A stretch of 32,000 bases of DNA, from positions 630,001 through 662,000 of the forward strand of contig NC_022093.1 in assembly GCF_000446015.1 (NCBI RefSeq), given 5' to 3'. The DNA is from Thermofilum adornatum (lineage in GTDB: Archaea > Thermoproteota > Thermoprotei > Thermofilales > Thermofilaceae). Positions 2 to 19,749 of this stretch are shown here, in pieces (within the stretch, counting starts at the first letter, position 1; every line of letters starts with the position of its first letter). The notes under the pieces were generated by a model. The model saw only the letters and a list, made by a program, of their open reading frames with translations, did not search any database and was not told where the DNA came from. Position numbers and translations under genes: made by a program.

Positions 2-1555
2 AGAGAAGTTAAAGAGTCGCTTTCAGCCGTCAATATCGGCATCAAAGACATAGCTTACCAAATGGGTGAACACCTGCTTTCAAACCAGGAAAGCGATGAA
101 CTCGTAGAAGTGAAAGACGTCCTGAAAAAAGAACCACTATTCGATGCTAGATACGTCATAACTACACTCGACTCTCTTGCATATAACGCCTTCCGTGTCC
201 CAGTTACAGAGATTTTTAGCTACAGGAAACACTATGCTATCCCCAGAACTAGGATTTTCGTAAGTGCAACATATTTCGACGAGGCACACATGATCTACGA
301 GGAGAAGGAAGACGAAGAAAGCAACCTATTCACAACATTTAACGAGCTTCTCAGGATGCTGGTAGCAGCCCAAACACCAATTATTGTTGCAAGCGCCACA
401 CTCAGTGAAAACTCGGAGCGACACCTTCTAGAAACCCTACAAGAAGCAAAAATTGTAAAGCTTGACAAGACCGATAAAAGCGACGGGCACCTGACTCTTG
501 TCCACGACAAAGAATTCGAAGAAAACGTTACATCTATCCAATGGTTCTCTAGTCTTCTCCGAGAGGATAACCTAAAAGAAAAAGTCAAGGAACTCATCGA
601 TACAGGAATGACTGTTTTTATAGCACGGGATACAATAAGAGAAGCAATAAAAACCTTCAAAGAACTAAAAGAATCGCTTGAGCTAAATGATGATGAAATA
701 GTACTTTTACATAGCCTCATGACCAGGGAAGATAGAAGCAGAGCCCTAGAAAGCATCCGAGACGAAAAGACGAGGATACTCGTAGCTACAAGCATCGTGG
801 AGGCAGGCGTAGACATAAGTTTCAATGCATTAATTACAGATGCCAGCAGAGCCTCCTCTGTAATCCAGAGAACAGGCCGAGTATGCAGAAAAATTGAAAG
901 ATGCAAGGAAAACAAAGCACATGTCTTTATCCTCGAAAACAAGCACCTCGATTCAAGGATCAAAGGGCTCCTTGAAAATGCAGAAAACCAGCAAAAACAG
1001 ATATGCTGGAGACTGCCCTACGACACAGACAGTTATCTGGGCTACGGGCCGCTCCTACGGGAAACAGGTATCCCAGAAATAAACACGAAGCTGAAAAGGA
1101 GCCTGGAGACCCTAGCCTCTCCTCTCCTCATCTCCAGCAGATCCATCGGAGAAATTGTGAGAAACCATGGATACGGGCTGGTGCGGACATTTCTTGCAGA
1201 AGTCGTTGTTGCGGATCCAGAGCTTCTCAACGGAGCTGGCAGAAGAGTAAATCTAAACAAGGATAGCTTTGTAACCTCTCTAAACAAGCTCAGGCTTCTA
1301 GCTTCTAGGGGCTGCATAGACGGTCTGTATGTGGCGCTGGGGACACGGGAAAAAGCTACACTTAGGAAGATATCTCCAATAGAAGAGCTATACCGGCAAA
1401 GAGAAGAAATCAGCCTCGACAAATACTTCCATAACCTCCAAAAAACACTAGCCGACCCAGAAACAAAATACAACTTTGTTGGAACAGTCTTCCTGCTTAA
1501 AACTAACTGTTACGAGAAAAACCTAGGGGTAAAAGAAGATGTGCTACGCATATAG
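2..1555 (+). CDS. cas3: Cas3' SF2 helicase (type I CRISPR effector helicase), 5' end cut by window edge
   Basis: The reading frame is open from nt 2, with no stop upstream of the Met at 62. SF2 motifs appear in order: YFDEAHM (II), VASATLS (III), VATSIVEAGVDIS (V), QRTGRVCR (VI). Walker A must lie upstream of the window. An HD nuclease gene and a CRISPR array follow directly. Confidence 0.85.
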   Translation, partial: REVKESLSAVNIGIKDIAYQMGEHLLSNQESDELVEVKDVLKKEPLFDARYVITTLDSLAYNAFRVPVTEIFSYRKHYAIPRTRIFVSATYFDEAHMIYEEKEDEESNLFTTFNELLRMLVAAQTPIIVASATLSENSERHLLETLQEAKIVKLDKTDKSDGHLTLVHDKEFEENVTSIQWFSSLLREDNLKEKVKELIDTGMTVFIARDTIREAIKTFKELKESLELNDDEIVLLHSLMTREDRSRALESIRDEKTRILVATSIVEAGVDISFNALITDASRASSVIQRTGRVCRKIERCKENKAHVFILENKHLDSRIKGLLENAENQQKQICWRLPYDTDSYLGYGPLLRETGIPEINTKLKRSLETLASPLLISSRSIGEIVRNHGYGLVRTFLAEVVVADPELLNGAGRRVNLNKDSFVTSLNKLRLLASRGCIDGLYVALGTREKATLRKISPIEELYRQREEISLDKYFHNLQKTLADPETKYNFVGTVFLLKTNCYEKNLGVKEDVLRI

Positions 1556-2303
1556 AAAACCACCAATAGAAGAAACTCTCCACAAACACTCACTCGAGGT
1601 TGCCCAATGCATTAAAAACTCCTGGGAATTCATCGGCCTAAAAAGAAAAATATGGAGGCTCTACGGTATCGACGAGGAAACAGCCGGAGACCTAGTTCTC
1701 ATAGCAGGCCTCCTCCACGACCTAGGAAAAGCAGAAAAAGAAACACAGGAAAAATGCAAGACAGAGTGCACAGATTTCCCACATCACTATGTAACCTCCG
1801 CGATGATAGCCCTCAGGATCGGGTACAACACCATCGACCTCGACCTAAGCCCAGACAACATAGAGGACACCCTCAACCAACTCCTAGCTGGAAAAAATAC
1901 GCAGCTCGAGGCGAGACATATCTTCCTGGCACTAGTTGTCCTACCAGTACTACTACACCACTACTCACAGATCACAAGCGAATACAGCGTCCTCAAACCA
2001 ATCCGCCCAACAATATCAATCGGAGACGAATGCCTAAAACAAATCAACACACTTGCAAACAACGCAAAACAATTCATCAAAACCCCCATCGCATCAAAAA
2101 TCCTAGACACCACGGCAAAAACCCTAAACAAGAACCCAATAGACTTAGGAGTACTACCAAACCTAAGAAACAACCTTCTCCGCATAGGAACATACAAAAC
2201 AGAGAACATACTAATCGAGGCAACCACAGGAATACTAAACAAATGCGACGGACAAACAGCAACAAAAAACCGAAAGAACAAACACAAACAAAAAACCAAA
2301 TAA
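1539..2303 (+). CDS. cas3'': Cas3'' HD-domain nuclease (split cas3, as in type I-A)
   Basis: HD-superfamily motifs are present: HKHSLEV, LIAGLLHDLGK, and LLHHYSQ further on. It overlaps the cas3' stop by 17 nt and lies next to the array. The coding strand is very A+C-rich (sampled line 2221-2280: 80% A+C), which gives a K/N/T-rich tail. Confidence 0.8.
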   Translation: MCYAYRKPPIEETLHKHSLEVAQCIKNSWEFIGLKRKIWRLYGIDEETAGDLVLIAGLLHDLGKAEKETQEKCKTECTDFPHHYVTSAMIALRIGYNTIDLDLSPDNIEDTLNQLLAGKNTQLEARHIFLALVVLPVLLHHYSQITSEYSVLKPIRPTISIGDECLKQINTLANNAKQFIKTPIASKILDTTAKTLNKNPIDLGVLPNLRNNLLRIGTYKTENILIEATTGILNKCDGQTATKNRKNKHKQKTK

Positions 2304-2339
2304 AACCACCCCAAAACTTACACAAAAACCAAGACTTTA

Positions 2340-3478
2340 ATTTCAATTCTTTCTCAGTTGCATCCCAATACATTGAGCAAATGTTTTCAAAGGGCAGCGG
2401 TAGAGCCTTCAATTCTTTCTAAGTTGCATCTACAGCTAATACAGGCCGCAATCGCCATCATGATAACAATCCTTCAATTTTTTCTTAGTTGCATCTAGGG
2501 TGTCAATCGATGTTATTGTTACCTCAACAAATTCAATCCTTCAATTCTTTCTAAGTTGCATCCGGAAATCCTAGAAAATTCGAGTACTTTCTTCTGAACT
2601 ACAAATCCTTCAATTCTTTCTTAGTTGCATCGCGAGTTCTTCGATGTCCCTGTCCCGCAGTGATTTCTGCATCGCCTTCAATTCTTTCTGAGTTGCATCC
2701 TCGATTATGAGGCCGAGGACAAGGGCGATCAGGAAAAAGTTCCTTCAATTCTTTCTGAGTTGCATCTTGGTATATCACGCAAGAGGACTTAGACAAGGCT
2801 CTACAATACGCCCTTCAATTCTTTCTGAGTTGCATCATATTATACCGTAAGCCAACTTTTCACATATGGAAGCATTGCCTTCAATTCTTTCTGAGTTGCA
2901 TCGGCTTGCTTGATGTCCTCTATTTCTGCCGTAATTGCTTTTAGTCCTTCAATTCTTTCTGAGTTGCATCAGCCGGGGCAGGGGAGGACCAGCCCCAAAT
3001 ATACATTATCCTTCAATTCTTTCTGAGTTGCATCACTGTATGATGGAAGAGACTATCACGGCCCCTTCCACACCTCCTTCAATTCTTTCTGAGTTGCATC
3101 TTCTACGTTGCCGACCAGGTTTCAATGGCACTTTATGGTCCTTCAATTCTTTCTGAGTTGCATCCCTCTCCAGCATCCTCGCGGTCGCAGAGACGAAGGG
3201 GACCTTCAATTCTTTCTGAGTTGCATCTCTAACACAGCTGCGCAGCTTTATTTATGAATGGATAACCTTCAATTCTTTCTGAGTTGCATCCAAGGTGTTG
3301 AAAATTATCTTGTATCCATTTATTTCTCCTTCAATTCTTTCTGAGTTGCATCTCAATGTCAGCCCTAGCATACTTAATCTGCCCATTTCCTTCAATTCTT
3401 TCTGAGTTGCATCTTACTGGCTCCGAGGTGCAAGCGAAGCTTCACACAGCTGTCCTTCAATTCTTTCTGAGTTGCATC
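2340..3478 (-). CRISPR. CRISPR array 1: 18 repeats of 25 bp, 17 spacers of 36-45 bp
   Basis: The plus-strand repeat is CCTTCAATTCTTTCTGAGTTGCATC. Repeat starts are 2340, 2406, 2471, 2538, 2607, 2675, 2742, 2812, 2878, 2946, 3010, 3076, 3140, 3203, 3266, 3328, 3389 and 3454. The minus-strand reading GATGCAACTCAGAAAGAATTGAAGG ends in ATTGAAGG, the 8-nt crRNA 5'-handle type, so the functional orientation is minus. Degenerate repeats (2340; CTAAG/CTTAG variants at 2406-2631) sit at the left, leader-distal end. Confidence 0.97.
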
Positions 3479-3724
3479 CGAAATGTTTTACTCGGGCATG
3501 GTTTATATGTTTAATGCTTTTTCCTTCAAGAAGTCTGCAAAACTGCCCTAGCACACAAATTTACACATTGGAAACTTCTGAAACTTCCCTATAGGGAAGC
3601 TTCCCGAAACACCCCGTTTTGGGTCGGGACGTTTTCCCGTAAACCTAAATTTAAAATAAGCTTCCCAATGAGAAACTTCATAAACAACTTTTAGTTTGCA
3701 CATAGGGAAATAGTTGACAAAAAC
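3479..3724 (-). promoter_or_regulatory. CRISPR leader 1 (~246 bp) with TATA-like box
   Basis: It is near-identical by eye to 17263-17506, which flanks array 2. Shared blocks include GGTTTATATGTTTAA, AAAACTGCCCTAGCAC, AAATTTACACATTGGA, CCCCGTTTTGGGTCGGGA, GAGAAACTTCATAAACA and TTGACAAAAA. The minus-strand sequence ACATATAAAC (3501-3510) lies 23-32 nt upstream of the first repeat, which fits an archaeal TATA box. Confidence 0.8.
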
Positions 3725-3780
3725 TTATCCATGTTAACTTGGCAAGGTGACAGTGTCGCTACAAGGACAATTAGGGGTAG

Positions 3781-5580
3781 CTAGGGCGTGCTTGTCTGTT
3801 TTTCTCTGTTTTCTAGGCATGTGTAGATCTCTGCCAATGCTTCTAGTGTTTGTCTGGGTGTTTTGCCTGCTTTTTGCCTGAATGCTTCGAATTCTTGGCG
3901 TGGCACGGCTCCGCCCTCGAGGATCCTGGGGACGACGTGTCTATGTGGGAAGAGCTCGACGTATAGCTTCATGAGCTCTAGGGGGTCGGCGCCGTGGCGC
4001 CTAGCAGTGTCCTCGAACCTGAGGCACGGGTTAACGTTTGCGCTGCGGCTCCTGAACTCTGCGGGTATGTAGAGGCTCGCTATGACGGGCTGGAGCCCCC
4101 TCCTGACTACTAGTGCCTGGCCGTAGGCGAGCTTTCCGAGGAGGCCGGCGTCCCTCCAGCCCGTGACTGTGGCCAGTGTCTCGAGGTTGTCTGGGTCGTT
4201 TGTCGCGAAGACCATGAGTGTGCCTGCGTCCGCGAGCTTCCTGGCTACTCTGGCGAGGCTGTGGCCAACGGCCCATATCGAGACGTTGTACTTTCTGAGC
4301 TCGTCTGCTATCCTGTTTGCGACCTCTGTGTCTCCCAGCCTGTCTGCCTCGTCTAGGACGATTATCCCGCTCCAGCCTCCCCTCACGGCGGAGAAGTATG
4401 CCAGGTAGAGCGCCGATAGGCTGAAGATGTTCTTCGCCTCCTCTGGCAGCGGGCTGAGGTCGACCACTGTCCTCCCCCTGGGCAGGTCGCCGTGGCCGAG
4501 GAGGGCTGGGTGGATCATGGGCCTAAGCCTCCTGATGAGGGCGCCCGCGGCCGCCCGCTCGTCCTCCTGCCTGGAAGAGGACAGCAGCTTCTCGACGTGG
4601 CTGTAGGCGTCCAAGAGTGTCCCGCTCTTCTGGAGAGCCGTGTAGAGCGTGTAGGCGACTATTGGCGAAGCCTTTTCCTTCCACGTTGCCTCTATGACGC
4701 CCAATATGACAGAGTAGGCGACGTCTACGCCCATAGCGAGGGGGTTGATGAAGAGGTCTACCCCTGCCTCGAGGACCCTGTAGCCGTGCCTCTCGAGGAG
4801 CCTGTGCTCGCCCGTGACGTCCAAGACGAGCACGTTCCAGCCCTCGAGCCTGCTCAGCAGGTAGTCCAGGAAGCTACTCTTCCCAGTCCCTGGAGCCCCG
4901 ATAATCGTGAGGCTGTTGTCCGAGCCCTCCCGAAGCCTCAGGCTGTAGCCGTGAAAAACAGGGATCTCCACTGCCCCGACAGCCTCGCCAGTATAGCCGC
5001 CAGAAACCAGGCCACGCGTAGCAATATCCACGTCCAGCGGCGTAAACACGTACAGCGGGTCAAGCCACGAAACCCTGGCAAGCAGGGGCGCCTTCAGCCT
5101 CGAAAACTTCTCGGCCAGCCCCCTGCTACCCTTCCCAAAGACCACCGCGTAGCCCCTATACACAGAGCCATACAGCAGGGCGCTCGAAACATACGGCTCA
5201 AATGCGCTCGGCAACCCGTACCTATACGCCCTCTGAAGCCCCTCATAGAACTTAGTAGCGTCACGCCTATACAGCACGAGGCCCACGTGGCCCCTAAGAG
5301 GCACAGCAACAGGCACACGAATCCTCAAAAAACGAGCCTCGGGAAACACGGGCTCAACACGCCAAACCCTCCACCCAGCGCCGACAGCAACCTCCTCAAA
5401 GACCCCCGCATCCCTCTCCCCCACCCCTATCAGCAAGCCCCTACCAAAATTAGCCACACCAAGCCTCCTAACCCCAGAAGCAAAAACAGGCCCAAGCCAC
5501 ATCTCCCCAGCAACAGCATCAACACCAAACCACACCGCCATACCAAAAACACAAGCAACAAAAATAAAAGGTGGAAACAA
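3781..5580 (-). CDS. HerA/DUF87-like (FtsK-HerA superfamily) P-loop ATPase with hydrophobic N-terminus
   Basis: Walker A is LTIIGAPGTGKSSFL and Walker B is GIIVLDEADRLG. The N-terminal sequence MFPPFIFVACVFGMAVWFGV looks membrane-associated. The 599-aa ORF is GC-rich. The family call rests on motif spacing only. Confidence 0.55.
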   Translation of the reverse strand: MFPPFIFVACVFGMAVWFGVDAVAGEMWLGPVFASGVRRLGVANFGRGLLIGVGERDAGVFEEVAVGAGWRVWRVEPVFPEARFLRIRVPVAVPLRGHVGLVLYRRDATKFYEGLQRAYRYGLPSAFEPYVSSALLYGSVYRGYAVVFGKGSRGLAEKFSRLKAPLLARVSWLDPLYVFTPLDVDIATRGLVSGGYTGEAVGAVEIPVFHGYSLRLREGSDNSLTIIGAPGTGKSSFLDYLLSRLEGWNVLVLDVTGEHRLLERHGYRVLEAGVDLFINPLAMGVDVAYSVILGVIEATWKEKASPIVAYTLYTALQKSGTLLDAYSHVEKLLSSSRQEDERAAAGALIRRLRPMIHPALLGHGDLPRGRTVVDLSPLPEEAKNIFSLSALYLAYFSAVRGGWSGIIVLDEADRLGDTEVANRIADELRKYNVSIWAVGHSLARVARKLADAGTLMVFATNDPDNLETLATVTGWRDAGLLGKLAYGQALVVRRGLQPVIASLYIPAEFRSRSANVNPCLRFEDTARRHGADPLELMKLYVELFPHRHVVPRILEGGAVPRQEFEAFRQKAGKTPRQTLEALAEIYTCLENREKQTSTP

Positions 5581-5649
5581 AAGAACCTTTTAGACAAAAC
5601 AAACTGTTTGATTTTACTAAGACTAGCATTTTATTATAACCCGTGTTAC

Positions 5650-7059
5650 CTACAAGATAAAACGAAGATACTTAGGTTTCAATAATTTAATAGATTTTTT
5701 TCTACTTAATATATACGACAGTGCCGCATAAATGTATCCCTTGCCGCTGATAATGTCTTGAAGAACATTTTTATCGCTTTCAAGAGCTTTTCGATATTCC
5801 TCATAGGTTTTGAAAGTAGATACTTCGTTATAGACAAATATCATTCTCAGAAGCATATCACGTAAAGTTTTTTTAATTTTTTTCATTTGAGTTTGAGTGT
5901 ATACGTTTTTAAGAGTCTCAAGCATATATCTTCTGTATTGGTTTACAATTTTTAAAGCCTCATCGATATTATCGACTGTTAGGGACATGCTATTTAGTGA
6001 CTCCATTTTAATATCCTCAAATCTTGGAAGAATATTGTTCCATTTTTGGTCTAAGCTTTCTTTATAATTAAGTATGTCCGCAGGTGCCATTGCAATGATT
6101 GAAATTCTTTTTGAAAAAGGTCTCACAAGGAGAAGAGCTTCATAGCTGTTAGAATTACCAAAAAATATCTTAGCGTCATGTGGACAGCCTCCAATTACTT
6201 CGGAATCTCCAATTCTTAATTTTATTTGAGAGATAAACACCTTTTCTGCAATCTTCACATGAGTGATTACCGGAACAACAAAGTCGCCGGGAAAAACGTA
6301 TTGATAGTTATATCTTGGGATTGGAATTAAATATTTTGGATCCATGCTAATTTTGCCTAGTAACAGTTTTGATACAAAGTTAGGAGTTGCATAAAGCCCT
6401 TCCATTTCATCCAGGGCTGATTTGATTGATAGCCAATCTTTAGGGACACGGCTGATATTGATTTTAATCTTTCTAGACGGTCTTATTCTTAGAAAAGGTT
6501 CATAGAGGATTATCTGTTTTAAGGTGAGCTGTGCTCCGATTATTAGATTTCCAGATGTAGAGTTCAAATATTCCTGAAAATAAGATGAAGGGACACGTAT
6601 GTATACAGGTTTCTGTAGAGCCATGCTGTACAAAATTAAGTGCGCTCTATTACCTTCAAAGTATGCGTATATCCCTTTAAATTCCATTTCATTAATTTTT
6701 TTACCGCATGGGGGTATAATTTCTGCAATACCTGATTTTTCGCGTCCTTGAGAGTATTCAAGTAATTTTAGTGGGTCTTTTCTTATTTCATCGCTGATTC
6801 TCTTTTGAAATCTTACATCTTCGGCGCATTGATTATACATATCTTCCAGTATTCTTCCCATAAGTGGATGACTGCTTAGTAATTTTTTTAATCTGCGAGT
6901 CTTCTTCCATACATCTTGGTTCTCGTAACTTTCGAAAGAGTCAAGAAAAGAGAGAAATTCTCTACTATACCTCGAATACTCTCTTACGTGAATAATGATA
7001 TTATAGAGGTCTGACAAAGCAATTGCAAACGGTATTGGGTAGAAATACTCATCCAGCAT
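5650..7059 (-). CDS. Hypothetical protein (469 aa), last gene of the DISARM-like operon
   Basis: It is a long intact ORF in AT-rich DNA. Its ATG at 7059 overlaps the stop of the upstream PLD gene by 11 nt. I recognise no catalytic motif. Confidence 0.7.
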   Translation of the reverse strand: MLDEYFYPIPFAIALSDLYNIIIHVREYSRYSREFLSFLDSFESYENQDVWKKTRRLKKLLSSHPLMGRILEDMYNQCAEDVRFQKRISDEIRKDPLKLLEYSQGREKSGIAEIIPPCGKKINEMEFKGIYAYFEGNRAHLILYSMALQKPVYIRVPSSYFQEYLNSTSGNLIIGAQLTLKQIILYEPFLRIRPSRKIKINISRVPKDWLSIKSALDEMEGLYATPNFVSKLLLGKISMDPKYLIPIPRYNYQYVFPGDFVVPVITHVKIAEKVFISQIKLRIGDSEVIGGCPHDAKIFFGNSNSYEALLLVRPFSKRISIIAMAPADILNYKESLDQKWNNILPRFEDIKMESLNSMSLTVDNIDEALKIVNQYRRYMLETLKNVYTQTQMKKIKKTLRDMLLRMIFVYNEVSTFKTYEEYRKALESDKNVLQDIISGKGYIYAALSYILSRKKSIKLLKPKYLRFIL

Positions 7060-7858
7060 GTATGCTCACAGAGGGTTGTTTAGCCAGATTCCATATTTGT
7101 TGGAAAAGTCGCAATAACTGATTAACTATTTCACCTTTGAAAAGAACCGCTATATCATAATTTGACAAGAAATGGACTTCTGTCATATTGAAGCTTCCTA
7201 TCATAGCCATGTTTTCTGTTATAATCATTTTTAAATGAATGCCTCGAATTTTTGTATAAATTGTTTTTTGACCATATTTTATTAAACCATATTGACCAAT
7301 CACTTTATACTCAAGATTAGGAAAAAGAGAATTCTTTAAGCGTTGCAAACTACCTATGTTCTCTTTTTTGAATTCCGTTAATATCCTTAGATTAGGGATA
7401 TTCCGTATAAATGCTTTATAGTTTGAGAGAAGACCTGTGAAGGTTGAATCGATATAAGGCACAGCAATATTTAATTCTCTTTCAGCGCTTAATATTATTT
7501 CTCCTATGGCGTCAAAAAAGGATGGAAAACTTTCAAAAGATTTTCCTAAGTCTTCTTTTAAAGCTCCCGACAAGATAATGGATACATCAGGACTCGAAAT
7601 AAACTTTTGCATTAGGTCTTTATCCTCATTAACTGCCCAAAGGGTGGTTGTCAAAGGTCGTGTCTCATCAAAAAACTCATCTTTTACTGCCTTTACAAGT
7701 CCTATCCTTCGCAGCTCTAATAGACATTTAATTATCTGGGATATGCTAACTTCATCTGGGAATTGCTTCTTTATCTCCGGAACACTCTTGGGACTCTCCC
7801 TTAAGATTGAAAGAATTTTTTCTTTCATTTCTGGGGCGCAATTATTTTTAAACGACAT
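7049..7858 (-). CDS. wHTH-fused PLD-family (HKD) nuclease, DrmC-like
   Basis: There is a single HKD motif: IRGIHLKMIITENMAMIGSFNMT (H-x-K-x4-E-x5-GSxN). The N-terminal EKILSILRESPKSVPEIKKQF...LLELRRIGLVKAV looks like a winged helix. The ATG at 7858 is preferred; a TTG at 7882 is also open. Either start overlaps the DUF1998 gene stop (7848-7850). Confidence 0.7.
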   Translation of the reverse strand: MSFKNNCAPEMKEKILSILRESPKSVPEIKKQFPDEVSISQIIKCLLELRRIGLVKAVKDEFFDETRPLTTTLWAVNEDKDLMQKFISSPDVSIILSGALKEDLGKSFESFPSFFDAIGEIILSAERELNIAVPYIDSTFTGLLSNYKAFIRNIPNLRILTEFKKENIGSLQRLKNSLFPNLEYKVIGQYGLIKYGQKTIYTKIRGIHLKMIITENMAMIGSFNMTEVHFLSNYDIAVLFKGEIVNQLLRLFQQIWNLAKQPSVSIHAG

Positions 7859-9227
7859 AATGTGCCAACCTTTTCTTGTCAATTATAAAATTCAATGAGA
7901 AACGATTGAGAACATAGTTTAGCCACATACAGTTTGCGGAGAACAGGCACGCCTTGCATGCCAGATTGCATGAACGAGGACATTCAGTTCTCTTGCCAAC
8001 CAAGGCTATATAATCTATTTTTAGAGTATTATCCTTCTCAATTAAACTTCTTACACCACCTATGCCGCCTGGAGAATTGTCGTAGATTAGAACTTGGTAT
8101 ATGTCCCTTTCTTGATCTACTTTAATAGCTTCGCCAAATTCATGCTCACTTAAACCAGCAATAAGTGGAGCTGTTATGAGGAATAGATGCGCCAATGTAT
8201 GGGTTATTACGGTAGGGGTTGCGTCACGCGATGAAAAACCCATTTTCTGAAGACTTTCTTGAGTTTCCTTTACTTTTGATGGATCCAAATTTATAAGTAA
8301 TCCTTCTGTTTCAATTTTTCTCCCAATAACTTCAATGGCATTATCATTCCCAATAGAGACTATAGGAATGCGCTCCCTTTTTCCGGCGTAAGGAGTACCT
8401 GCCAACAGGAAAAGAGTTAACTGGTATACTTTTGCCTTGGTAAAAGCTATATCTATTATTCCTGGCATGCTTTCCTTAGGAAAATTTATTTCAATTTTAT
8501 CATTATCAAGTGTCTTAAACAGGTTGATCGAAAAAGGCTTAGTAAGGGACTCGCTTGGTGGGACAATTCTATAAATCGTGTTTTCTCTCCTGGGAGGACG
8601 GACAATTGCATATGGAACGCTAGTAGAAGAATTACCTCTCCCCTTGCCACATACATTTATCTGAGTTGAACCAAGCGGTAGCTGTAGTTTCCATGGACAT
8701 TTTGAACTTCGATTCACGTCTGGACATGCATAAATTAGCGAGCTAACAGGTCTCTCAGTACTAATTCGAACAATGCGTTTCAATACTTTGTTTTTTCTGT
8801 CAACGTCGCAGTATGCGTTAACAAATTTTGCAACAGGAATAAATAAATACTCTTCACTTCTCCTATAATAAGTAGAGAAGTTAGAAACTTGAAAATATCT
8901 ATTTGGAGGGGTTAGGAACTTAGGGGCGGCAATATAGGCCTGAATAATTTTACCCCCACAATCACACTTGAAGTTTTTGGGTACCTCATCATCTCTATAT
9001 ATTTTGCCACATTTAGAGCACCAAAAATACCTTAAAGAAATTAGGTTATTTTCTAATTCAGCTAAAACGTTTTCAGGCATTATTACTTTTACCTTTTTTC
9101 CCCTCACTTGGCGAGCTAAAAGGTCAAATACTGTGCTCAACTGGTACATCTCGCTTTTAAGTCTGTCAAGTTCTCTTGCGAGCTCATCAAGAAGACTATA
9201 ATTGATATCTTGTGACAAGACCCTCAC
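7848..9227 (-). CDS. DUF1998 (MrfA-type Zn-binding domain) protein, DrmB-like
   Basis: The C-terminal signature is LIYDNSPGGIGGV followed by the Cys cluster ECPRSCNLACKACLFSANCMWLN...LNR. The N-terminus carries a Zn ribbon, CSKCGKIYRDDEVPKNFKCDCGG. Its GTG start overlaps the helicase stop (GTGA at 9224-9227). Confidence 0.75.
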   Translation of the reverse strand: MRVLSQDINYSLLDELARELDRLKSEMYQLSTVFDLLARQVRGKKVKVIMPENVLAELENNLISLRYFWCSKCGKIYRDDEVPKNFKCDCGGKIIQAYIAAPKFLTPPNRYFQVSNFSTYYRRSEEYLFIPVAKFVNAYCDVDRKNKVLKRIVRISTERPVSSLIYACPDVNRSSKCPWKLQLPLGSTQINVCGKGRGNSSTSVPYAIVRPPRRENTIYRIVPPSESLTKPFSINLFKTLDNDKIEINFPKESMPGIIDIAFTKAKVYQLTLFLLAGTPYAGKRERIPIVSIGNDNAIEVIGRKIETEGLLINLDPSKVKETQESLQKMGFSSRDATPTVITHTLAHLFLITAPLIAGLSEHEFGEAIKVDQERDIYQVLIYDNSPGGIGGVRSLIEKDNTLKIDYIALVGKRTECPRSCNLACKACLFSANCMWLNYVLNRFSLNFIIDKKRLAHYVV

Positions 9228-11779
9228 CCATCTTCTAGAAAAGACTTTATATTTACGGTATTTCCTTCAATCATTTTCACAACGTAGAATATACCCCTAA
9301 AAGAAATGACTTGCCCCCTACTTGCTCGCCTGATTGCCGTGGACAATTCTCTCGGTCTCGTGTCAGATGCCGAGCCAAATGAGGGACTAAATTTGAATAA
9401 AACGGCTTTTTCGGCATGCCTGAGGTTGTAAATTTGATAGATGTTGTCGATTTTTTTCAAAATACTTTCGATTTTAGTAGATTTTTCGAAAGGACCTATT
9501 GACTGGCTAATGCGATCTATAGCCTCGCGCAAAGCATCTTCAAAAAGATTATTGTCTAATGACCCTATAACTCCTTGAATATGGTTTATCATCTTTAAAT
9601 GTAGCGAGTCTCTTTCGTCAAATAGAACAGCTTTAAGACGTGTTAAGACTTGATCGTCTACTGCCGACTCTTCATCATATAGTTTTCCTATGTTAATCTT
9701 CTCTGAGGCTACCGACAAATAATCAAAGATTGCCCTTGTTATTGTTCTGCGTATAGCTTCTTGATTGTTGGACTTTATTGTATAACTTTCCAAGGACATT
9801 GCATCGCTTCTTAAAGCCGGGTCGCATAGAAGTCTATAGTTTTGATAGTAATAGTAATCTATGGGTGTTTGTGGGTCAAATATAACAATAATTAACGCAT
9901 CCCTGTTCCGACCCGCCCGCCCAATACGCTGCGTGAAATCTGAAATATAAAACGGCATCCCATGAATAACAGCTACATCAAGTGAGCCATAATCTACGCC
10001 TACTTCAAGAGTCTTTGTCGCTACCAGCACCTGGTACACTTTTTTGCTGAAATCTTGCTCTATCCTTATTCTGTCTTGTTCGTAATCAGTTGTATGACCG
10101 CCTACCCTTATACCCTGTATGTTTGCAATCTCATCATTTAGCCCGCGCCATAGTTCATTACTTTCCGCTAGTGAATTGACGAAAACAATTGTTTGTGGTT
10201 TTTTCTCCTTTGCTAAATCATAAAGTTTACCTATAGCTCTTATACATGTAGCCTGCATCTCATAGGTCTTGGGCATTAGGAAAAGAAATATTCTTTGTGA
10301 TTTAACATTCACACCTTTATCGTAATTAGCTTCGAATACTTCTATTGACTTAGCATCTTCTCCAAGTAAACTAGCTGCAAACATTTTAGGACTATGAATT
10401 GTTGCGCTAGAGATAATATAGGTAGGTCTCCAATCTGGCAGTTCGTTGTGATAAGTTCTAATAGCCTGCTCAAGTCTCTTCAATAAATAATATGTTTGTA
10501 TCCCAAAACTCCCCCTTAGCATATGTGCTTCATCTAGAACAATAGCGATCGGATGACCTAGCTTCTGCATAGGTATTAGCTCTGTAGACCCACATCTGCA
10601 TTTTCTTTTTTGAACAGGATATGTTGACCCGCATTTTTTGCATACTTTAACACTAGAGTATCCTATAATGGTTAATTCGGAGGGATTGCGCATCAAGACA
10701 GCATTGATCATGTCTTGATCTGTTAACAAAATATCAGGCGGTTCGGAGTAAATTGCCTCTCTTGTTAGTTTTATCCATTTATTCACCCAATCACTATCTC
10801 TATTCACAGGGCAATCCTCATAGTCGCACGACAATTTTTCCAAGGAAAATTTTTCTTCTTGTCTTTCAAAGTAAAGTGTGAGCGGGCGTTCATGAATGGG
10901 ACATTTAATCATTGTAACTTCTGGTTTATCTTCTCCGCTGGCAAACCTGCTTTTTATATTTCCATGCAATATTCCCATTGTAATTGTAAGGTCCTCCCGT
11001 TTTTGCCTGCGTAAATAATCATTAAAGTACCAGAGCAGATGAGCCAATTCGTCGGCCTGATCATTTGCAAGTGCCTTTGTTGGATAAAATAGAATAGCTT
11101 TACAGCCCTTGTGACCTTTGGCTTTATAAATAGCTGAGGCAAAAATTAAGGGAAGCAGAAAAGCATAGGTTTTTCCGCCAGAGGTCCTCGCAACTATTGC
11201 AAAATGTCTTTTTTCAGTATTCAAACCCAGAAGTGTTAGAGATATTTTCTTCAAGGCAGCTTCCTGGTACTTATATAACTTTTTTATACCTAACTGCTCA
11301 AGGGAATATTGAAGAGCGCTACCCACTATTTCAATGTCGTCGTGCTTAACTCCCGACCGTATAAATTGTTTGGCTTCATAAATTAGATTCCTTAGAGATT
11401 CTTTTACTTCGTCTTCAGAGGCTTCAATTGAAAAAACAGGCTCTTTAGCTATATTCCAGTCTCTAAACTTAAACCTGTTTCCTTGGTCGTCTTCAGCGAG
11501 GAGACAATTTATTGGATTAATTCCCTGGAGACCAAACTTGTCCCATTTCCATTCAACATTGTATCCTTCGAAGGCAACTTCACCCTCTACTTCAAATAGG
11601 TGTCCCATTGACCATTTATAGCCATTGCTATCATAGACGTATACTGTCGGTTTTTTTCTTTCTACAATTTTGTTATTGTATTGTTTCTTGTCGAAATAGC
11701 CACCGAGGCATATGAGTAAGCTCTTTAGAAAATATGTTTCTCCATAGTTTTTCTCTCTCGTAATACTTATCCCGATCAC
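9224..11779 (-). CDS. SF2 DEAD/DEAH-box helicase with inserted Zn ribbon, DrmA-like
   Basis: Motifs are ARTSGGKTYAF (I), IVLDEAHML (II), ISSATI (III), VATKTLEVGVDYG (V) and QRIGRAGRN (VI). A CKKCGSTYPVQKRKCRCGS insert lies between the RecA lobes. About 150 aa at the N-terminus are unassigned. Its GTG start overlaps the upstream gene's stop (GTGA at 11776-11779). Confidence 0.8.
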   Translation of the reverse strand: MIGISITREKNYGETYFLKSLLICLGGYFDKKQYNNKIVERKKPTVYVYDSNGYKWSMGHLFEVEGEVAFEGYNVEWKWDKFGLQGINPINCLLAEDDQGNRFKFRDWNIAKEPVFSIEASEDEVKESLRNLIYEAKQFIRSGVKHDDIEIVGSALQYSLEQLGIKKLYKYQEAALKKISLTLLGLNTEKRHFAIVARTSGGKTYAFLLPLIFASAIYKAKGHKGCKAILFYPTKALANDQADELAHLLWYFNDYLRRQKREDLTITMGILHGNIKSRFASGEDKPEVTMIKCPIHERPLTLYFERQEEKFSLEKLSCDYEDCPVNRDSDWVNKWIKLTREAIYSEPPDILLTDQDMINAVLMRNPSELTIIGYSSVKVCKKCGSTYPVQKRKCRCGSTELIPMQKLGHPIAIVLDEAHMLRGSFGIQTYYLLKRLEQAIRTYHNELPDWRPTYIISSATIHSPKMFAASLLGEDAKSIEVFEANYDKGVNVKSQRIFLFLMPKTYEMQATCIRAIGKLYDLAKEKKPQTIVFVNSLAESNELWRGLNDEIANIQGIRVGGHTTDYEQDRIRIEQDFSKKVYQVLVATKTLEVGVDYGSLDVAVIHGMPFYISDFTQRIGRAGRNRDALIIVIFDPQTPIDYYYYQNYRLLCDPALRSDAMSLESYTIKSNNQEAIRRTITRAIFDYLSVASEKINIGKLYDEESAVDDQVLTRLKAVLFDERDSLHLKMINHIQGVIGSLDNNLFEDALREAIDRISQSIGPFEKSTKIESILKKIDNIYQIYNLRHAEKAVLFKFSPSFGSASDTRPRELSTAIRRASRGQVISFRGIFYVVKMIEGNTVNIKSFLEDG

Positions 11780-12495
11780 GGCAGCGTGATGTATTTTGTA
11801 TCTCTTGATGAAACCTGTCCATTCTTTGCAGCCGTTTTATTTATAGAAAACTTAAAATCTTTATCCTGCCTAGAGCCCAAATATTTTTCAATATCGGGAA
11901 AGCTGTCTTTTAAATCAATGAATAAATGATTGCCCTGTGAGTGCTCAAGTCTAGCATAGATCTTTGAGCCAAGAGGTAGTCCCACCGCAATATCTACTCT
12001 ATTATTGTTATTCCAAGAAATTTGCCTGCGTAAATTCTTTTGGAACACCGAATTTATATCTTTTCTATTAATTTTCACTGTGACATCGATTATATTTTCA
12101 TTAATTAACGTAAACTCAATCTTCACATCAGCAAAGTTTTCCTCAGTGTCATCTGGACAGGGCGGGGCAAGTCTAATGGCAAAACTGTAGCCTAAGTTTA
12201 CTTTTCTCTCTTTATGAGACGTAAGAGGACTTATTTTAGAAAACTCAAATCCTGTTAGGTACCATGCATGAAAAGATTTAGAAAGACCTTCGTCTTCTTC
12301 TTCAGTTTCTTCTGCTTCCTCTTCATCAACTGAAACAACTTTATTAGAATCGTCAAGGAGCTTATAGTCTTCCAAAAACTTCTCATAAAGAGCAAATGGA
12401 AGAGGACCTAAAACAGCTATATGCGGTTTTTCAGGATGCTTTCGATCTTTTAGGTATACTACTAGTTGCTCGGCTATACTTTCAAAAACATTCAT
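11776..12495 (-). CDS. Hypothetical protein (~239 aa) with acidic tract, first gene of the DISARM-like operon
   Basis: The ORF is intact, with an ATG at 12495 (a GTG at 12498 is also in frame). It contains the acidic run DEEEAEETEEEDEG. It appears translationally coupled to the helicase. No motif was recognised. Confidence 0.65.
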   Translation of the reverse strand: MNVFESIAEQLVVYLKDRKHPEKPHIAVLGPLPFALYEKFLEDYKLLDDSNKVVSVDEEEAEETEEEDEGLSKSFHAWYLTGFEFSKISPLTSHKERKVNLGYSFAIRLAPPCPDDTEENFADVKIEFTLINENIIDVTVKINRKDINSVFQKNLRRQISWNNNNRVDIAVGLPLGSKIYARLEHSQGNHLFIDLKDSFPDIEKYLGSRQDKDFKFSINKTAAKNGQVSSRDTKYITLP

Positions 12496-12518
12496 CACAG
12501 TTAATTTTTATATACTTG

Positions 12519-12532
12519 CATATAAATTTTCT
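12519..12532 (-). promoter_or_regulatory. Putative TATA box for the five-gene operon (leaderless-type spacing)
   Basis: The minus strand reads AAAATTTATA at 12530-12521, about 26-35 nt upstream of the ATG at 12495. This spacing is typical of crenarchaeal leaderless transcripts. The call rests on the sequence pattern only. Confidence 0.3.
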
Positions 12533-12846
12533 GACTCATAATATATTTGATTTTTCTATGACAGCATGTTCCACAAAAATTTATCGTTTTCAAAGTTCTC
12601 TATAAAAGTATGCCCATTTACTTTATTACGACTTCCCAATGATTAATTTTAAATGAAACGATATCATATGTTAACTTCGCCGGGGAAATTACACATGACA
12701 ACAGAAGTATCGTTTAAAGTTTACAAGAATATTCCTCCTATGAATAGAGAGAGATACGAGGTCGGAAGCAATCAGGCAATATACAATACTCTTCGAAGCG
12801 AAATAAAAGAAAAAAATGGATAGAATTGCTGAAGTTCATCGGTAAA

Positions 12847-14749: not shown

Positions 14750-14798
14750 CTCATAAATTCATTGATCTTTAAAAGGAGGCATAAAAGTGTACATACAT

Positions 14799-19528: not shown

Positions 19529-19535
19529 TTAGGAG

Positions 19536-19709: not shown

Positions 19710-19749
19710 TGTTATTAGTATTATTGTGGGGTTTTTTATAAGTTTTTTG

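What the first reader, a model, noticed from the sequence alone, without database searches (positions are those of the whole stretch)
3781..5640. Strand-composition polarity flips inside an intact 599-aa ORF
On the plus strand, 3781 to about 4800 is G+T-rich and A-poor (line 3781-3840: 67% G+T; line 4141-4200: 62% G+T with 8% A). From about 4950 to 5640 the same strand is A+C-rich (line 5101-5160: 32% G+T; line 5401-5460: 22% G+T). The change falls near the Walker A codons (~4900), yet the reading frame stays open.

The protein reflects this. The N-terminal third is G/V/F/W/R-rich and the extreme C-terminus is K/Q/T/P-rich. A skew flip inside a gene cannot be explained by transcription direction or codon preference. 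Possible explanations are a recombination junction that made a chimeric gene, a replication-polarity boundary, or localised strand-specific deamination.
Basis: seen in the sequence. Interest (0 to 1): 0.65.

Follow-up and report, generated by a model that had tools for sequence, protein, structure and literature searches.

The report
Opposed strand-damage gradients inside one gene
The mid-gene flip in strand composition is real and strongest at silent codon positions, but the gene is not a chimera: it is one of several kilobase-long, one-strand mutation gradients in this hot-spring archaeon (Thermofilum) that begin at a gene promoter, at CRISPR arrays and at an unusual tRNA gene.

Summary
On the coding (-) strand of the ATPase gene (3781-5541), G+T at fourfold-degenerate sites falls from about 0.9 in the first 60 codons to about 0.07-0.10 in the last 50. 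Spearman rho is -0.54 (p 9e-26). The best split is at codon 232 (about nt 4848, beside Walker A).

The gene is an intact, full-length HerA/VirB4-clade ATPase under purifying selection, with the same nearest relative in all three segments, so it is not chimeric.

The gradient is lineage-specific. It occurs in Thermofilum adornatum-like strains, only weakly or not at all in homologues of 67% identity or less, and partly in one other lower-GC lineage.

It is not unique in the window. Similar tracts lie downstream of both CRISPR arrays and on both sides of a circularly permuted tRNA-Met gene at 19535-19705. There, three genes have 0-10% G/T at fourfold sites. The flanks show no replichore-scale change.

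Polarised polymorphisms in the strongest tract show ongoing strand-asymmetric mutation (C>T and G<->T on the G+T-rich strand).

Best reading, inferred: single-strand DNA damage tied to transcription or R-loops, with two opposed tracts meeting inside the ATPase gene. The motor that exposes the strand is unproven. Intergenic spacers inside the big tract are only weakly skewed.

The parts
3781..5541 (-). HerA/VirB4-clade P-loop ATPase gene, 586 aa from ATG 5541. The mechanical ORF runs to TTG 5580. It is intact and under purifying selection.
   Evidence: ORF. Pfam DUF87/AAA. Full-length family. AlphaFold pLDDT 84, with best fold matches HerA, VirB4 and DndH-C. Synonymous:non-synonymous differences among strains are 34:13 and 53:13.
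4800..5620 (-). 5' tract. The coding (RNA-like) strand is G+T-rich: fourfold sites 0.9 falling to about 0.5. It starts at or just upstream of the gene's promoter and decays downstream.
   Evidence: A fitted gradient crosses 0.5 at about nt 4802. The best two-segment split is at about nt 4848.
3750..4800 (+). 3' tract. The + strand (antisense to the ATPase gene) is G+T-rich. It is strongest at the stop codon (0.70 in 3781-3900; fourfold sites of the gene about 0.1 G+T) and decays into the gene.
   Evidence: Absent from homologues not placed next to a CRISPR leader (L009, L001 and others).
5560..5570 (-). TATA-like box CTTTTATTTTT, about 24 nt upstream of the ATG (probably a leaderless mRNA). 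It is conserved in the close relatives and, as TTTTTATTTTT, in the distant L009.
   Evidence: Sequences.
5569..5570 (.). Homology breakpoint. All close relatives lose similarity to the window here, at the upstream edge of the TATA-like box. Beyond it lies strain-specific island DNA.
5650..16644 (.). Low-GC (0.33-0.44), unskewed, strain-specific defence island. It carries a DISARM-like DrmA/DrmB/DrmC set, a C5 DNA methyltransferase, an HhH-GPD glycosylase and a transglutaminase-like gene.
3479..3780 (-). Leader of CRISPR array 1. It is unskewed and about 83% identical to leader 2 up to about 3723. A promoter-like CATATAAAC lies about 35 nt before the first repeat.
2340..3478 (-). CRISPR array 1: 18 repeats of 25 nt. 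Degenerate repeats lie at the 2340 end, so it is transcribed on the - strand, from 3478 towards 2340.
1350..2339 (-). Tract downstream of array 1. The - strand is G+T-rich, strongest next to the array (+ strand G+T 0.26; non-coding 2304-2339 is 0.17). It covers the cas3 HD gene in antisense (gene fourfold G+T 0.07-0.18).
16645..17262 (-). CRISPR array 2 (10 repeats). Its leader runs from 17263 to about 17506.
15750..16644 (-). Tract downstream of array 2. The - strand is G+T-rich (0.56-0.66). It covers the spacer and the 5' part of the co-directional transglutaminase-like gene (fourfold G+T 0.71 falling to 0.46).
19535..19705 (-). Circularly permuted tRNA-Met(CAU) gene: 3' half placed upstream of the 5' half, 27-nt intron, encoded CCA. 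The BRE/TATA-like AAAAAACTTATAAAAAA lies at about 19727-19743. It sits exactly at the sharpest skew flip of the window.
   Evidence: The same arrangement is published for T. pendens tRNA-iMet (PMC3218864).
17850..19534 (-). Tract downstream of the permuted tRNA gene. The - strand is G+T-rich (+ strand 0.31-0.45). It covers orf424 in antisense (gene fourfold G+T 0.04-0.32).
19706..25450 (+). The strongest tract. The + strand is G+T-rich (0.82 falling to 0.58). It covers DUF711, orf378, the FlaI-like ATPase gene and a methyltransferase gene in antisense. Their fourfold G+T values are 0.01, 0.02, 0.11 and 0.32.
   Evidence: Absent from the syntenic T. pendens genes and present in an 82%-identical relative.

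Best explanation
**Proposal.** The ATPase gene is an ordinary, functional, full-length gene that lies under two opposed, local, strand-asymmetric mutation gradients.

In this hyperthermophile (Thermofilum adornatum-like), certain places make one DNA strand spend much more time unpaired than its partner. The unpaired strand accumulates hydrolytic and oxidative damage (C>T, A>G, G>T) and drifts towards G+T. Its partner drifts towards A+C.

**Where the exposed strand lies.** It is the RNA-like (non-template) strand:
- downstream of strongly used start points, namely the ATPase gene's own promoter, the trailer ends of the two CRISPR arrays and the permuted tRNA-Met gene;
- apparently also on the divergent side of two of these (the far end of CRISPR leader 1 and the upstream side of the tRNA promoter).

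Exposure decays over about 0.5 to several kb, which gives gradients. In the ATPase gene a sense-side gradient from its promoter meets an antisense-side gradient coming from the leader side. The skew therefore changes sign near codon 230 while the frame stays open.

**Shown:** the gradients, their anchoring points, their lineage specificity and the asymmetric substitution spectrum.

**Inferred:**
- single-strand exposure is the cause;
- transcription or R-loops are the motor;
- antisense start points exist at about 3750-3780 (+) and about 19765 (+).
For: 1. **The skew is greatest at silent sites and also shifts amino acids.**
   - ATPase gene fourfold G+T runs from about 0.9 to about 0.1.
   - The DUF711 protein has replaced V/E/G/S of its T. 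pendens orthologue by T/I/Q/P/K.

2. **The skew is lineage- and place-specific, not gene-specific.**
   - The FlaI-orf378-DUF711 genes of T. pendens are unskewed (0.51/0.55/0.47).
   - The same genes in this lineage are at 0.24-0.01.
   - ATPase homologues in GC-rich relatives lack the gradient.

3. **Polarity.**
   - Array transcription direction is fixed by leader position and repeat decay.
   - Immediately after the last repeat, the array-sense strand is G+T-rich in four different downstream contexts:
     - window array 1 into cas3 HD;
     - window array 2 into the transglutaminase-like gene;
     - L004 array 2 into an unrelated gene (0.70);
     - L006/L007 array 1 into non-coding DNA plus a small ORF (0.62-0.75).

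4. **Other 5'-anchored tracts.**
   - The ATPase 5' tract starts at its conserved TATA-like box.
   - It is also present in the distant L009 in another context.
   - Several other genes of this lineage show 5' G+T-rich silent sites that decline downstream.

5. **All tract cores share one composition on the G+T-rich strand:** T 0.53-0.72, G 0.27-0.36, C and A about 0-0.1.

6. **Ongoing mutation, polarised with outgroup L031, fourfold sites, big tract versus neighbouring control genes in the same genomes.**

   | Change on the sense strand | Tract | Control | p |
   |---|---|---|---|
   | G>A | 7/27 | 5/114 | 0.002 |
   | C>T | 4/249 | 8/166 | 0.07 |
   | A>G | 9/355 | 3/142 | 1.0 (not depressed) |
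   | A<->C | 14/604 | 1/308 | 0.03 |

   In the ATPase 5' part, C>T is 6/121 versus G>A 2/255 (p = 0.015).

7. **Predicted equilibrium.** G+T computed from these rates matches the observed composition in the ATPase gene: 0.73 vs 0.70 in the 5' part and 0.40 vs 0.42 in the 3' part (own arithmetic on the counts).

8. **Background.** In the crenarchaeon Saccharolobus, RNA polymerase piles up promoter-proximally on many units, including a CRISPR promoter (PMC8448881). T. adornatum grows at about 92 C. From established knowledge, heat accelerates deamination of unpaired DNA.
Against: 1. **Spacers.** Two intergenic spacers inside the big tract are only weakly skewed: 21923-22299 at 0.62 and 24331-24553 at 0.57. 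Neighbouring silent sites are about 0.9-1.0. Pure mutation pressure should hit them equally, unless they are constrained or recently replaced. One spacer does hold an orphan CRISPR repeat and leader remnant.

2. **No antisense promoter is demonstrated** at about 3750-3780 or about 19765.

3. **Terminator-like runs.** The + strand of the big tract has 32 runs of five or more T in 5.7 kb. These should terminate archaeal transcription quickly, yet the skew stays near-saturated for more than 2 kb.

4. **Counter-example 1.** An ordinary tRNA-Val gene (25455-25547) has no strong flanking tracts.

5. **Counter-example 2.** The orphan leader at about 22.1 kb points into orf378/DUF711 in sense. Those genes nevertheless have the opposite polarity to that seen downstream of the real arrays.

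6. **Codon preference exists.** Ribosomal protein genes lean to A/C-ending codons (0.21, 0.31), so some translational preference for such codons exists.

7. **One or two tracts.** A single monotonic gradient fits the ATPase data. Two separate tracts are not resolved statistically.

8. **Non-deamination changes.** Many amino-acid changes need G>C (E to Q), which is not a simple deamination product.

9. **Small numbers.** Polymorphism counts are small.
Confidence: 0.5

Rival explanations
1. **Selection on sequence composition rather than mutation bias.** A/C-ending codons (read by Watson-Crick pairing of G34/U34 tRNAs) would be favoured in some genes, with G/U-ending slow codons in the first 230 codons of the ATPase gene acting as a long translational ramp. 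Alternatively, selection would keep the sense strand free of T-runs and load the antisense strand with T-run terminators, insulating genes from antisense transcription coming from arrays and the tRNA gene.
For: - Tract borders coincide with coding borders at the ATPase stop (3781) and the DUF711 stop (19750).
- Spacers inside the big tract are weakly skewed.
- Ribosomal protein genes prefer A/C-ending codons.
- The sense strand of the big tract has 2 runs of five or more T against 32 on the antisense strand. The cas3 HD antisense strand has 11 in 0.8 kb.
- Class-preserving A<->C or G<->T changes are over-represented among differences.
Against: - Codon positions 1 and 2, and therefore the proteins, are shifted too.
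- Non-coding DNA next to tracts is skewed: 2304-2339 at 0.17; -60 to -1 of the ATPase gene at 0.88-0.90; non-coding DNA after the L006/L007 array.
- At fourfold sites the class-changing A>G is not depleted relative to control, while G>A and A<->C are elevated in absolute terms.
- The tract genes are far more biased (0-0.1) than ribosomal protein genes (0.21-0.31).
- Terminator selection would need T only, not removal of both A and C.
- A 230-codon ramp with a linear decline has no precedent known to me.
Confidence: 0.17
2. **Local DNA-level strand displacement or unwinding, not RNA polymerase itself.** One version is abortive, R-loop-primed or origin-like DNA synthesis starting at the permuted tRNA gene and the CRISPR loci, comparable to mitochondrial D-loop or strand-displacement replication. 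Another is 3'-to-5' unwinding and degradation by Cas3 loaded at the arrays. Either would leave one strand single-stranded for kilobases on each side.
For: - Every anchor shows origin-like polarity: the strand running 5' to 3' away from the anchor is G+T-rich on both sides of the tRNA gene and of array 1 plus leader 1.
- The gradients are kb-long and near-saturated, as at vertebrate mitochondrial fourfold sites (established knowledge). This is hard to reconcile with many T-run terminators on the exposed strand.
- Cas3 polarity would expose the + strand to the right of array 1 (inference).
Against: - No origin hallmarks were found. No Orc1/Cdc6 gene was seen among the ORFs scanned, and the tRNA locus is GC-rich.
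- The leader side of array 2 does not show the expected polarity.
- The ATPase 5' tract, and other 5' gene tracts away from arrays (L009, L007, L020), start at ordinary gene starts.
- No replichore-scale change is present.
Confidence: 0.15
3. **Chimeric gene or foreign segment.** The two halves of the ATPase gene would have different origins, joined by recombination, each carrying the skew of its former context.
For: - The gene has 60% GC in a 38-47% GC neighbourhood.
- Strain-specific DNA begins immediately upstream at 5569.
- All three four-taxon site patterns occur among four strains, so recombination does occur within the gene.
Against: - The family is co-linear and full-length.
- The nearest relative is the same in all segments.
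- The change is a smooth gradient.
- Substitution rates predict the present local composition, so the skew is maintained in place.
- The breakpoint lies upstream of the promoter, not in the gene.
Confidence: 0.02
4. **Chromosomal replication origin or terminus** (a leading/lagging strand switch) falling inside the gene.
For: The sign change of keto skew has terminus-like polarity at about 4800 and origin-like polarity at about 19600.
Against: - There are several sign changes in 32 kb.
- The skew decays to about 0.5 within 1-6 kb.
- Flanks to the left and right have the same baseline (0.46 and 0.48).
- The amplitude is far beyond any replication skew known to me.
Confidence: 0.03

Closest known systems
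Transcription-associated strand asymmetry. From my own knowledge: excess C>T on the non-transcribed strand in E. coli, and G+T excess on the sense strand of mammalian genes that starts at the TSS. Review found here: PMC3269016.
   Same: - The G+T excess lies on the RNA-like strand.
- It starts at or near a start point.
- It is seen at silent and some non-coding sites.
- The substitution asymmetry is of the C>T type.
   Different: - The amplitude is one to two orders larger: 80-100% instead of a few per cent at silent sites.
- It decays over 0.5-6 kb.
- It is confined to a few loci rather than all expressed genes.
- In several genes the dominant signal is on the antisense side.
- It reshapes protein composition.
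Vertebrate mitochondrial heavy/light-strand asymmetry, with gradients proportional to the time spent single-stranded (my own knowledge; strand-asymmetry reviews listed, not read, e.g. PMC3269012).
   Same: - One strand is G+T-rich and the other A+C-rich.
- Silent sites are near-saturated.
- The gradient is positional.
- C>T and A>G fall on the exposed strand.
   Different: - This is a 1.75-Mb archaeal chromosome with many short local tracts of either polarity.
- No strand-displacement replication is known here.
- G and T are depleted even more completely (0-2%).
Somatic hypermutation by AID at immunoglobulin genes (my own knowledge).
   Same: The mutation density is anchored near a promoter and decays over about 1-2 kb of transcribed DNA through deamination of unpaired cytosines.
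   Different: - AID is enzyme-driven, somatic and hits both strands.
- Here no deaminase is implicated, the effect is evolutionary, and it is strongly strand-specific.
Replication-associated GC/keto skew switches at bacterial and archaeal origins and termini (Z-curve or GC-skew origin finding; PMC3269016, and PMC4009838 as listed, not read).
   Same: The keto skew changes sign at a point.
   Different: - The scale is kb, not hundreds of kb.
- There are several switches in 32 kb.
- The baseline is identical on both sides.
HerA / VirB4 / FtsK-clade ATPases (the protein itself).
   Same: - Walker A GAPGTGKS and Walker B VLDEAD are present.
- Pfam DUF87 matches.
- The best fold matches are HerA hexamers, VirB4 and DndH-C.
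   Different: - Only 11-17% identity to solved structures.
- The family has its own about 215-aa N-terminal domain and about 100-aa C-terminal helical domain.
- There is no NurA, Sir2 or DUF4297 partner next to it.
- It sits between a CRISPR leader and a variable defence island.

Membership tests
Transcription-associated mutational strand asymmetry | G+T (C>T, A>G) excess on the non-template strand, in the direction of a known transcript. | tested here: met
   Array transcription direction is known from leader position and repeat decay. The array-sense strand is G+T-rich just after the last repeat in four different downstream contexts. The same holds downstream of the permuted tRNA gene.
Transcription-associated mutational strand asymmetry | The skew starts at the transcription start site. 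| tested here: inconclusive
   The ATPase 5' tract begins 60-90 nt upstream of the ATG, at or just upstream of a conserved TATA-like box. No TSS data exist. The start points proposed for the two antisense-side tracts are unverified.
Transcription-associated mutational strand asymmetry | Present at neutral sites, including non-coding DNA. | tested here: inconclusive
   Fourfold sites are strongly skewed, as are several short non-coding stretches. Two spacers inside the big tract are only at 0.57-0.62.
Transcription-associated mutational strand asymmetry | Asymmetric substitution rates for complementary changes. | tested here: met
   Big tract: G>A per G is 0.26 and C>T per C is 0.016 (p = 1e-5). 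ATPase 5' part: C>T 0.050 and G>A 0.008 (p = 0.015). Counts are small.
Transcription-associated mutational strand asymmetry | Strength scales with transcription level. | not testable with these tools
   No expression data are available. Counter-hints: tRNA-Val has no strong tract, and ribosomal protein genes lean the other way.
Replication origin/terminus skew switch | The sign change persists over a replichore (100 kb or more). | tested here: not met
   The skew returns to about 0.5 within 1-6 kb. + strand fourfold G+T is 0.46 on the left, 0.49 in the island and 0.48 on the right. Only about 50 kb could be examined.
Replication origin/terminus skew switch | Origin hallmarks: an Orc1/Cdc6 gene, an AT-rich unwinding element and ORB repeats. 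| tested here: not met
   No Orc1/Cdc6 among the ORFs scanned. The flip at 19.6 kb is a GC-rich tRNA gene. The flip at 4.8 kb lies inside a 60% GC coding region. ORB motifs were not searched explicitly.
Chimeric / recombinant gene | The two parts have different nearest relatives. | tested here: not met
   P0002 is nearest in all three segments (0.58/0.74/0.64), and the order of the other 13 homologues is the same.
Chimeric / recombinant gene | An abrupt compositional step at a junction. | tested here: not met
   The decline is smooth and fitted by one exponential. The only homology breakpoint (5569) lies upstream of the gene.
Mitochondrion-like strand-displacement gradient | A monotonic gradient of silent-site skew with distance from a fixed point. 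| tested here: met
   ATPase gene 0.9 to 0.1 over 1.76 kb. Methyltransferase to DUF711: 0.47 to 0.00 over 5.7 kb.
Mitochondrion-like strand-displacement gradient | Replication by prolonged displacement of one strand. | not testable with these tools
   This needs nascent-strand or 2D-gel data.
HerA/VirB4/FtsK-clade ATPase (the protein) | Walker A and B motifs and a RecA-like core with the HerA/VirB4 fold. | tested here: met
   Motifs are invariant in the alignment. Pfam DUF87 scores 26.9 bits against a cutoff of 23.2. Foldseek E = 3e-14 to HerA, and TM 0.62 (target-normalised) to VirB4 and 0.60 to DndH-C over the core.
Circularly permuted tRNA gene (element at the neighbouring flip) | The 3' half lies upstream of the 5' half on one transcript, joins in the T-loop (59/60) and gives a canonical cloverleaf after rejoining. 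| tested here: met
   The rejoined sequence is called tRNA-Met(CAU) with a 27-nt intron by ARAGORN. The arrangement is as described for T. pendens (PMC3218864). Processing itself is not testable here.

The most novel reading that the evidence does not exclude
In Thermofilum adornatum-like archaea, a few RNA-producing loci (CRISPR arrays, a permuted tRNA-Met gene, some promoters) may act as point sources of prolonged single-strandedness. This could happen through stable R-loops or R-loop-primed, abortive strand-displacement DNA synthesis. The exposure would be strong enough to drive silent sites to about 100% strand purity for kilobases and to rewrite the amino-acid composition of housekeeping proteins. 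If so, this is a nuclear-genome analogue of the mitochondrial heavy-strand gradient. It would be a natural readout of where archaeal DNA is unpaired in vivo, and the resulting T-run-rich antisense strands might double as insulators against antisense transcription.
Probability: 0.2. Interest if true: 0.85.

Novelty: new variant of a known kind. Interest (0 to 1): 0.6.

Why it matters
If the reading is right, it would matter in four ways.

- **Base composition as a fossil record.** Composition alone would map where one strand of a hyperthermophile's chromosome is habitually unpaired: promoter-proximal zones, read-through zones behind CRISPR arrays and zones around a tRNA gene. That gives directly testable predictions for archaeal transcription, termination, R-loop biology and DNA repair at about 90 C.
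- **Local mutation pressure can remodel conserved proteins.** Local mutation pressure can override codon usage and remodel conserved proteins. DUF711 is only 50% identical to its T. pendens orthologue and is rich in Q, T, P and K.
- **Gene calling.** T-free strands carry no stop codons, so spurious long ORFs appear in several frames.
- **Misreading of local skews.** Such skews can be mistaken for horizontal transfer, chimeras or replication origins.

For the ATPase gene itself the message is sobering: the gene is ordinary and its neighbourhood is what is unusual.

Tried and rejected
- **Chimeric gene.** Rejected by the full-length family alignment and segment-wise identities.
- **Overlapping gene on the + strand (ORF 4492-5685, 397 aa).** Rejected. 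Strain differences are 8 synonymous to 64 non-synonymous in that frame, against 53:19 in the ATPase frame. The ORF is open only because the strand lacks T.
- **Assembly or sequencing artefact.** Rejected. The same pattern occurs in independent JGI, ENA, NCBI and Logan contigs.
- **Double-strand-break resection at the island junction.** Rejected on polarity. 5'-to-3' resection predicts the opposite sign on each side (reasoning only).
- **Import of damaged single-stranded DNA during recombination of island flanks.** Predicts the same strand on both sides of a locus, which is not what is seen at array 1.
- **Cas3 unwinding from the arrays.** Fits three of four array sides and fails on the leader side of array 2. 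Kept only within a rival explanation.
- **Structured RNA at 19535-19705.** Rfam at gathering and at E up to 1 found nothing, and ARAGORN on the native sequence found nothing. It was resolved by hand as a permuted tRNA and then confirmed.
- **Two-exponential fit to separate the two ATPase tracts.** Not identifiable. One gradient fits as well.
- **Genome-contig scan with the single protein.** Found nothing. With the alignment it found only one Thermofilales MAG.
- **Literature searches** for local keto skew in Thermofilum or archaea found nothing relevant.
- **Sigma-70 promoter/terminator scanner.** Not used, because it does not apply to archaea.

Full report
**What is at the coordinates.**
- The 599-codon ORF lies on the - strand (3781-5580).
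- About 30 homologues of ~600 aa align with it from a conserved W-F-G motif near the N-terminus to the C-terminal helices.
- The 99%-identical P0001 and the alignment place the true start at the ATG at 5541 (586 aa).
- The protein has Walker A (GAPGTGKS) and Walker B (VLDEAD) motifs and a weak Pfam DUF87/HerA match.
- An AlphaFold model (pLDDT 84) finds HerA hexamers, VirB4 and DndH-C as best structural matches.
- It is a HerA/VirB4-clade ATPase with its own N- and C-terminal domains.
- Among four strains, synonymous differences outnumber non-synonymous ones in both halves (34:13 and 53:13), so the gene is functional.

**The observation.**
- On the coding strand, G+T at fourfold-degenerate sites falls from 0.89 (codons 1-60) to 0.10 (last 47 codons).
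- Spearman rho is -0.54 (p 9e-26). The best split is at codon 232, about nt 4848, next to the Walker A codons (0.80 vs 0.24). No permutation of 1000 is as extreme.
- Control 60-codon blocks from unskewed genes of the same organism have mean 0.454, sd 0.114.
- The profile is a smooth gradient. One exponential describes it, crossing 0.5 near 4802.

**Not a chimera, not an overlapping gene, not an artefact.**
- P0002 is the nearest relative in all three segments (0.58/0.74/0.64), and the other homologues keep their order.
- The long + strand ORF 4492-5685 exists only because that strand has almost no T. Strain differences are 8 synonymous to 64 non-synonymous in its frame.
- The same gradient is present in independent contigs 95-97% identical to the window (L004-L006).

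**Lineage specificity.**
- Homologues in GC-rich Thermofilales (67% aa identity or less) show no comparable gradient.
- L001 has only a short 5' excess. L009, a lower-GC lineage with a different neighbourhood, has a 5' G+T-rich tract (0.84 then 0.55) but no 3' A+C tract.
- The amino-acid gradient (positions 1 and 2) is largely shared with L001. It is partly a family trait, while the silent-site gradient is not.

**Context.** The window is a chromosomal segment of a Thermofilum adornatum-like archaeon. Growth at about 92 C is reported in the preprint read. From left to right the window holds:
- cas3 and cas3-HD, the end of a type I-A operon;
- CRISPR array 1 (2340-3478) with leader 3479-3780;
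- the ATPase gene;
- a low-GC, strain-specific defence island with DISARM-like DrmABC, a C5 methyltransferase and a glycosylase (5650-16644);
- CRISPR array 2 (16645-17262) with a homologous leader;
- two hypothetical ORFs;
- a structured GC-rich element at 19535-19705;
- DUF711, orf378, a FlaI-like ATPase gene, a methyltransferase gene, tRNA-Val, then housekeeping genes.

All close relatives lose homology with the window at 5569, the upstream edge of the ATPase TATA-like box.

**The flip is one of several.**
- A 300-nt profile shows kb-scale keto-skew tracts elsewhere.
- cas3-HD has fourfold G+T of 0.07-0.18.
- orf424 has 0.04-0.32.
- DUF711 and orf378 have 0.01 and 0.02 (0 of about 190 and about 4 of 155 sites).
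- FlaI has 0.11.
- The sharpest flip (0.32 to 0.78) is at about 19600.
- The island and the flanks (cas operon, SRP54, DnaG, aIF5B, Hel308, MCM, GINS) are unskewed. + strand G+T at fourfold sites is 0.46, 0.49 and 0.48 to the left, inside the island and to the right. This excludes a replichore boundary within the about 50 kb seen.

**What sits at the heads of the tracts.**

*(a) Both CRISPR arrays.*
- Their direction is fixed by leader position and repeat decay.
- Right after the last repeat the array-sense strand is G+T-rich, and this decays over 0.5-1 kb.
- It holds in four different downstream contexts:
  - cas3-HD in antisense;
  - the transglutaminase-like gene in sense (0.71 to 0.46);
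  - an unrelated gene in L004 (0.70);
  - non-coding DNA plus a small ORF in L006/L007.

*(b) The ATPase gene's own promoter.*
- The G+T-rich tract begins 60-90 nt upstream of the ATG, at a TATA-like box conserved even in L009.

*(c) The element at 19535-19705.*
- I resolved this as a circularly permuted tRNA-Met(CAU) gene on the - strand.
- Its 3' half (TCCACCCCGCGCGACCA) lies upstream of the 5' half.
- Rejoined, it gives a canonical cloverleaf with a 27-nt intron.
- It has a BRE/TATA-like promoter right after the DUF711 stop, and a T-run terminator that is strong in relatives but weak in the window.
- The arrangement matches the permuted tRNA-iMet of T. pendens (PMC3218864).
- Downstream of it the - strand is G+T-rich (orf424 in antisense). 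Upstream of its promoter the + strand is G+T-rich for 5.7 kb.

**Mutation or selection.**

*For mutation:*
- Positions 1 and 2 and the proteins shift as well. In DUF711, V/E/G/S have become T/I/Q/P/K relative to T. pendens.
- The syntenic FlaI-orf378-DUF711 genes of T. pendens are unskewed, while an 82%-identical relative is skewed.
- Short non-coding stretches beside tracts are skewed.
- All tract cores share one composition on the G+T-rich strand: T 0.53-0.72, G 0.27-0.36, A and C near 0.
- Polarised polymorphisms at fourfold sites in the same genomes differ between the big tract and control genes:

| Change on the sense strand | Tract | Control | p |
|---|---|---|---|
| G>A | 7/27 | 5/114 | 0.002 |
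| C>T | 4/249 | 8/166 | 0.07 |
| A>G | 9/355 | 3/142 | 1.0 |
| A<->C | 14/604 | 1/308 | 0.03 |

- In the ATPase 5' part, C>T per C exceeds G>A per G (p = 0.015). In the 3' part the trend reverses but is not significant (p = 0.24).
- The rates predict the present composition, so the skew is at equilibrium (own arithmetic on the counts).

*Against a purely mutational view:*
- Two spacers inside the big tract are only at 0.57-0.62.
- Ribosomal protein genes prefer A/C-ending codons.
- Many replacements need G>C.

**Mechanism.**
- The signature is that expected for damage to unpaired DNA: C>T, A>G and G>T on one strand.
- The polarity downstream of units of known direction is that of the non-template strand.
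- I therefore infer that the ATPase gene carries a sense-side tract from its own promoter and an antisense-side tract entering from the CRISPR-leader side.
- The 3' tract occurs only where the gene abuts the leader.
- Promoter-proximal accumulation of RNA polymerase in a crenarchaeon, including at a CRISPR promoter, provides a plausible gradient of exposure (PMC8448881).

*Weak points:*
- The antisense start points are unproven.
- The exposed strand of the big tract is full of T-runs that should terminate transcription (32 in 5.7 kb).
- tRNA-Val has no such tracts.
- An orphan leader at about 22.1 kb points the 'wrong' way.

A DNA-level motor (R-loop-primed or origin-like strand displacement, or Cas3 unwinding) would give the same polarity and remains a live rival.

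**Comparison with known things.**
- The phenomenon works like transcription-associated strand asymmetry and like the mitochondrial heavy-strand gradient.
- It differs from both in scale, locality and amplitude.
- I found no description of it in the searchable literature.
- I rate it a new variant of a known kind.
- The ATPase flip is a true but secondary symptom of a locus-wide, lineage-specific phenomenon.

Noticed in passing
window 19535-19705 (- strand): Circularly permuted tRNA-Met(CAU) gene with a 27-nt intron and an encoded CCA. Rfam and ARAGORN both miss it on the native sequence. The acceptor stem is C1-G72 in the window, but the A1-U72 type (initiator-like) in relatives L004 and L031. 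The spacer between the halves and the presence of the intron differ between strains.
   Followed up: yes
window 19750-24330 (- strand genes): DUF711, orf378 and the FlaI-like ATPase gene have 0-11% G/T at fourfold sites. The DUF711 protein is rich in Q, T, P, K and H and only 50% identical to its T. pendens orthologue. The syntenic T. pendens genes are unskewed.
   Followed up: yes
window 22083-22107 and about 22110-22200: An orphan, degenerate CRISPR repeat (3 mismatches), followed on its right by leader-like sequence. It lies in the spacer between orf378 and the FlaI-like gene and has the same orientation as the two arrays.
   Followed up: partly
window 5650-16644: A low-GC, strain-specific defence island between the ATPase gene and array 2. 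DrmA, DrmB and DrmC match PADLOC models end to end at near identity. There are two unknown ORFs (469 and 240 aa), a C5 DNA methyltransferase next to an HhH-GPD glycosylase, and a transglutaminase-like gene. Relatives carry different cargo at the same junction (5569).
   Followed up: partly
window 19736-20662, 20790-21623, 22232-22855, 23093-23812 (-), and 4492-5685 (+): Long spurious ORFs in alternative frames on the A+C-rich strand. They give low-complexity T/N/P/K/R/H translations. They arise because a strand almost free of T has almost no stop codons, which is a trap for gene callers.
   Followed up: partly
window 3454-3723 versus 17237-17506: The two CRISPR leaders are paralogous (about 83% identical) up to TTGACAAAAA and then diverge. 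The motif AAAAACTTAT occurs both at the far end of leader 1 (3719-3728, +) and in the promoter of the permuted tRNA gene (- strand).
   Followed up: partly
L028 3940-9651 (left of the window) and window 62-2303: Along the type I-A cas operon, fourfold G+T declines from 5' to 3': csa5 0.53, cas7 0.45, cas5 0.42, cas8-like 0.32, cas3 0.40, cas3-HD 0.13. A similar 5'-to-3' decline is seen in many other genes of this lineage.
   Followed up: partly
window 4243-4262 and 4979-4998: A 20-nt inverted repeat (90% complementary) links the A+C-rich and G+T-rich parts of the ATPase gene. It may be a chance product of the complementary compositions.
   Followed up: no
L006 about 13020-13130: A tRNA-like sequence on the - strand, downstream of the short array of this relative, with G+T-rich + strand DNA on both sides.
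   Followed up: no
window 17485-18111: A 208-aa ORF in a 59-64% GC stretch, overlapped by other ORFs and with no family match. Its coding status is doubtful. This region is the most diverged between the window and L004 (89.5% identity).
   Followed up: no
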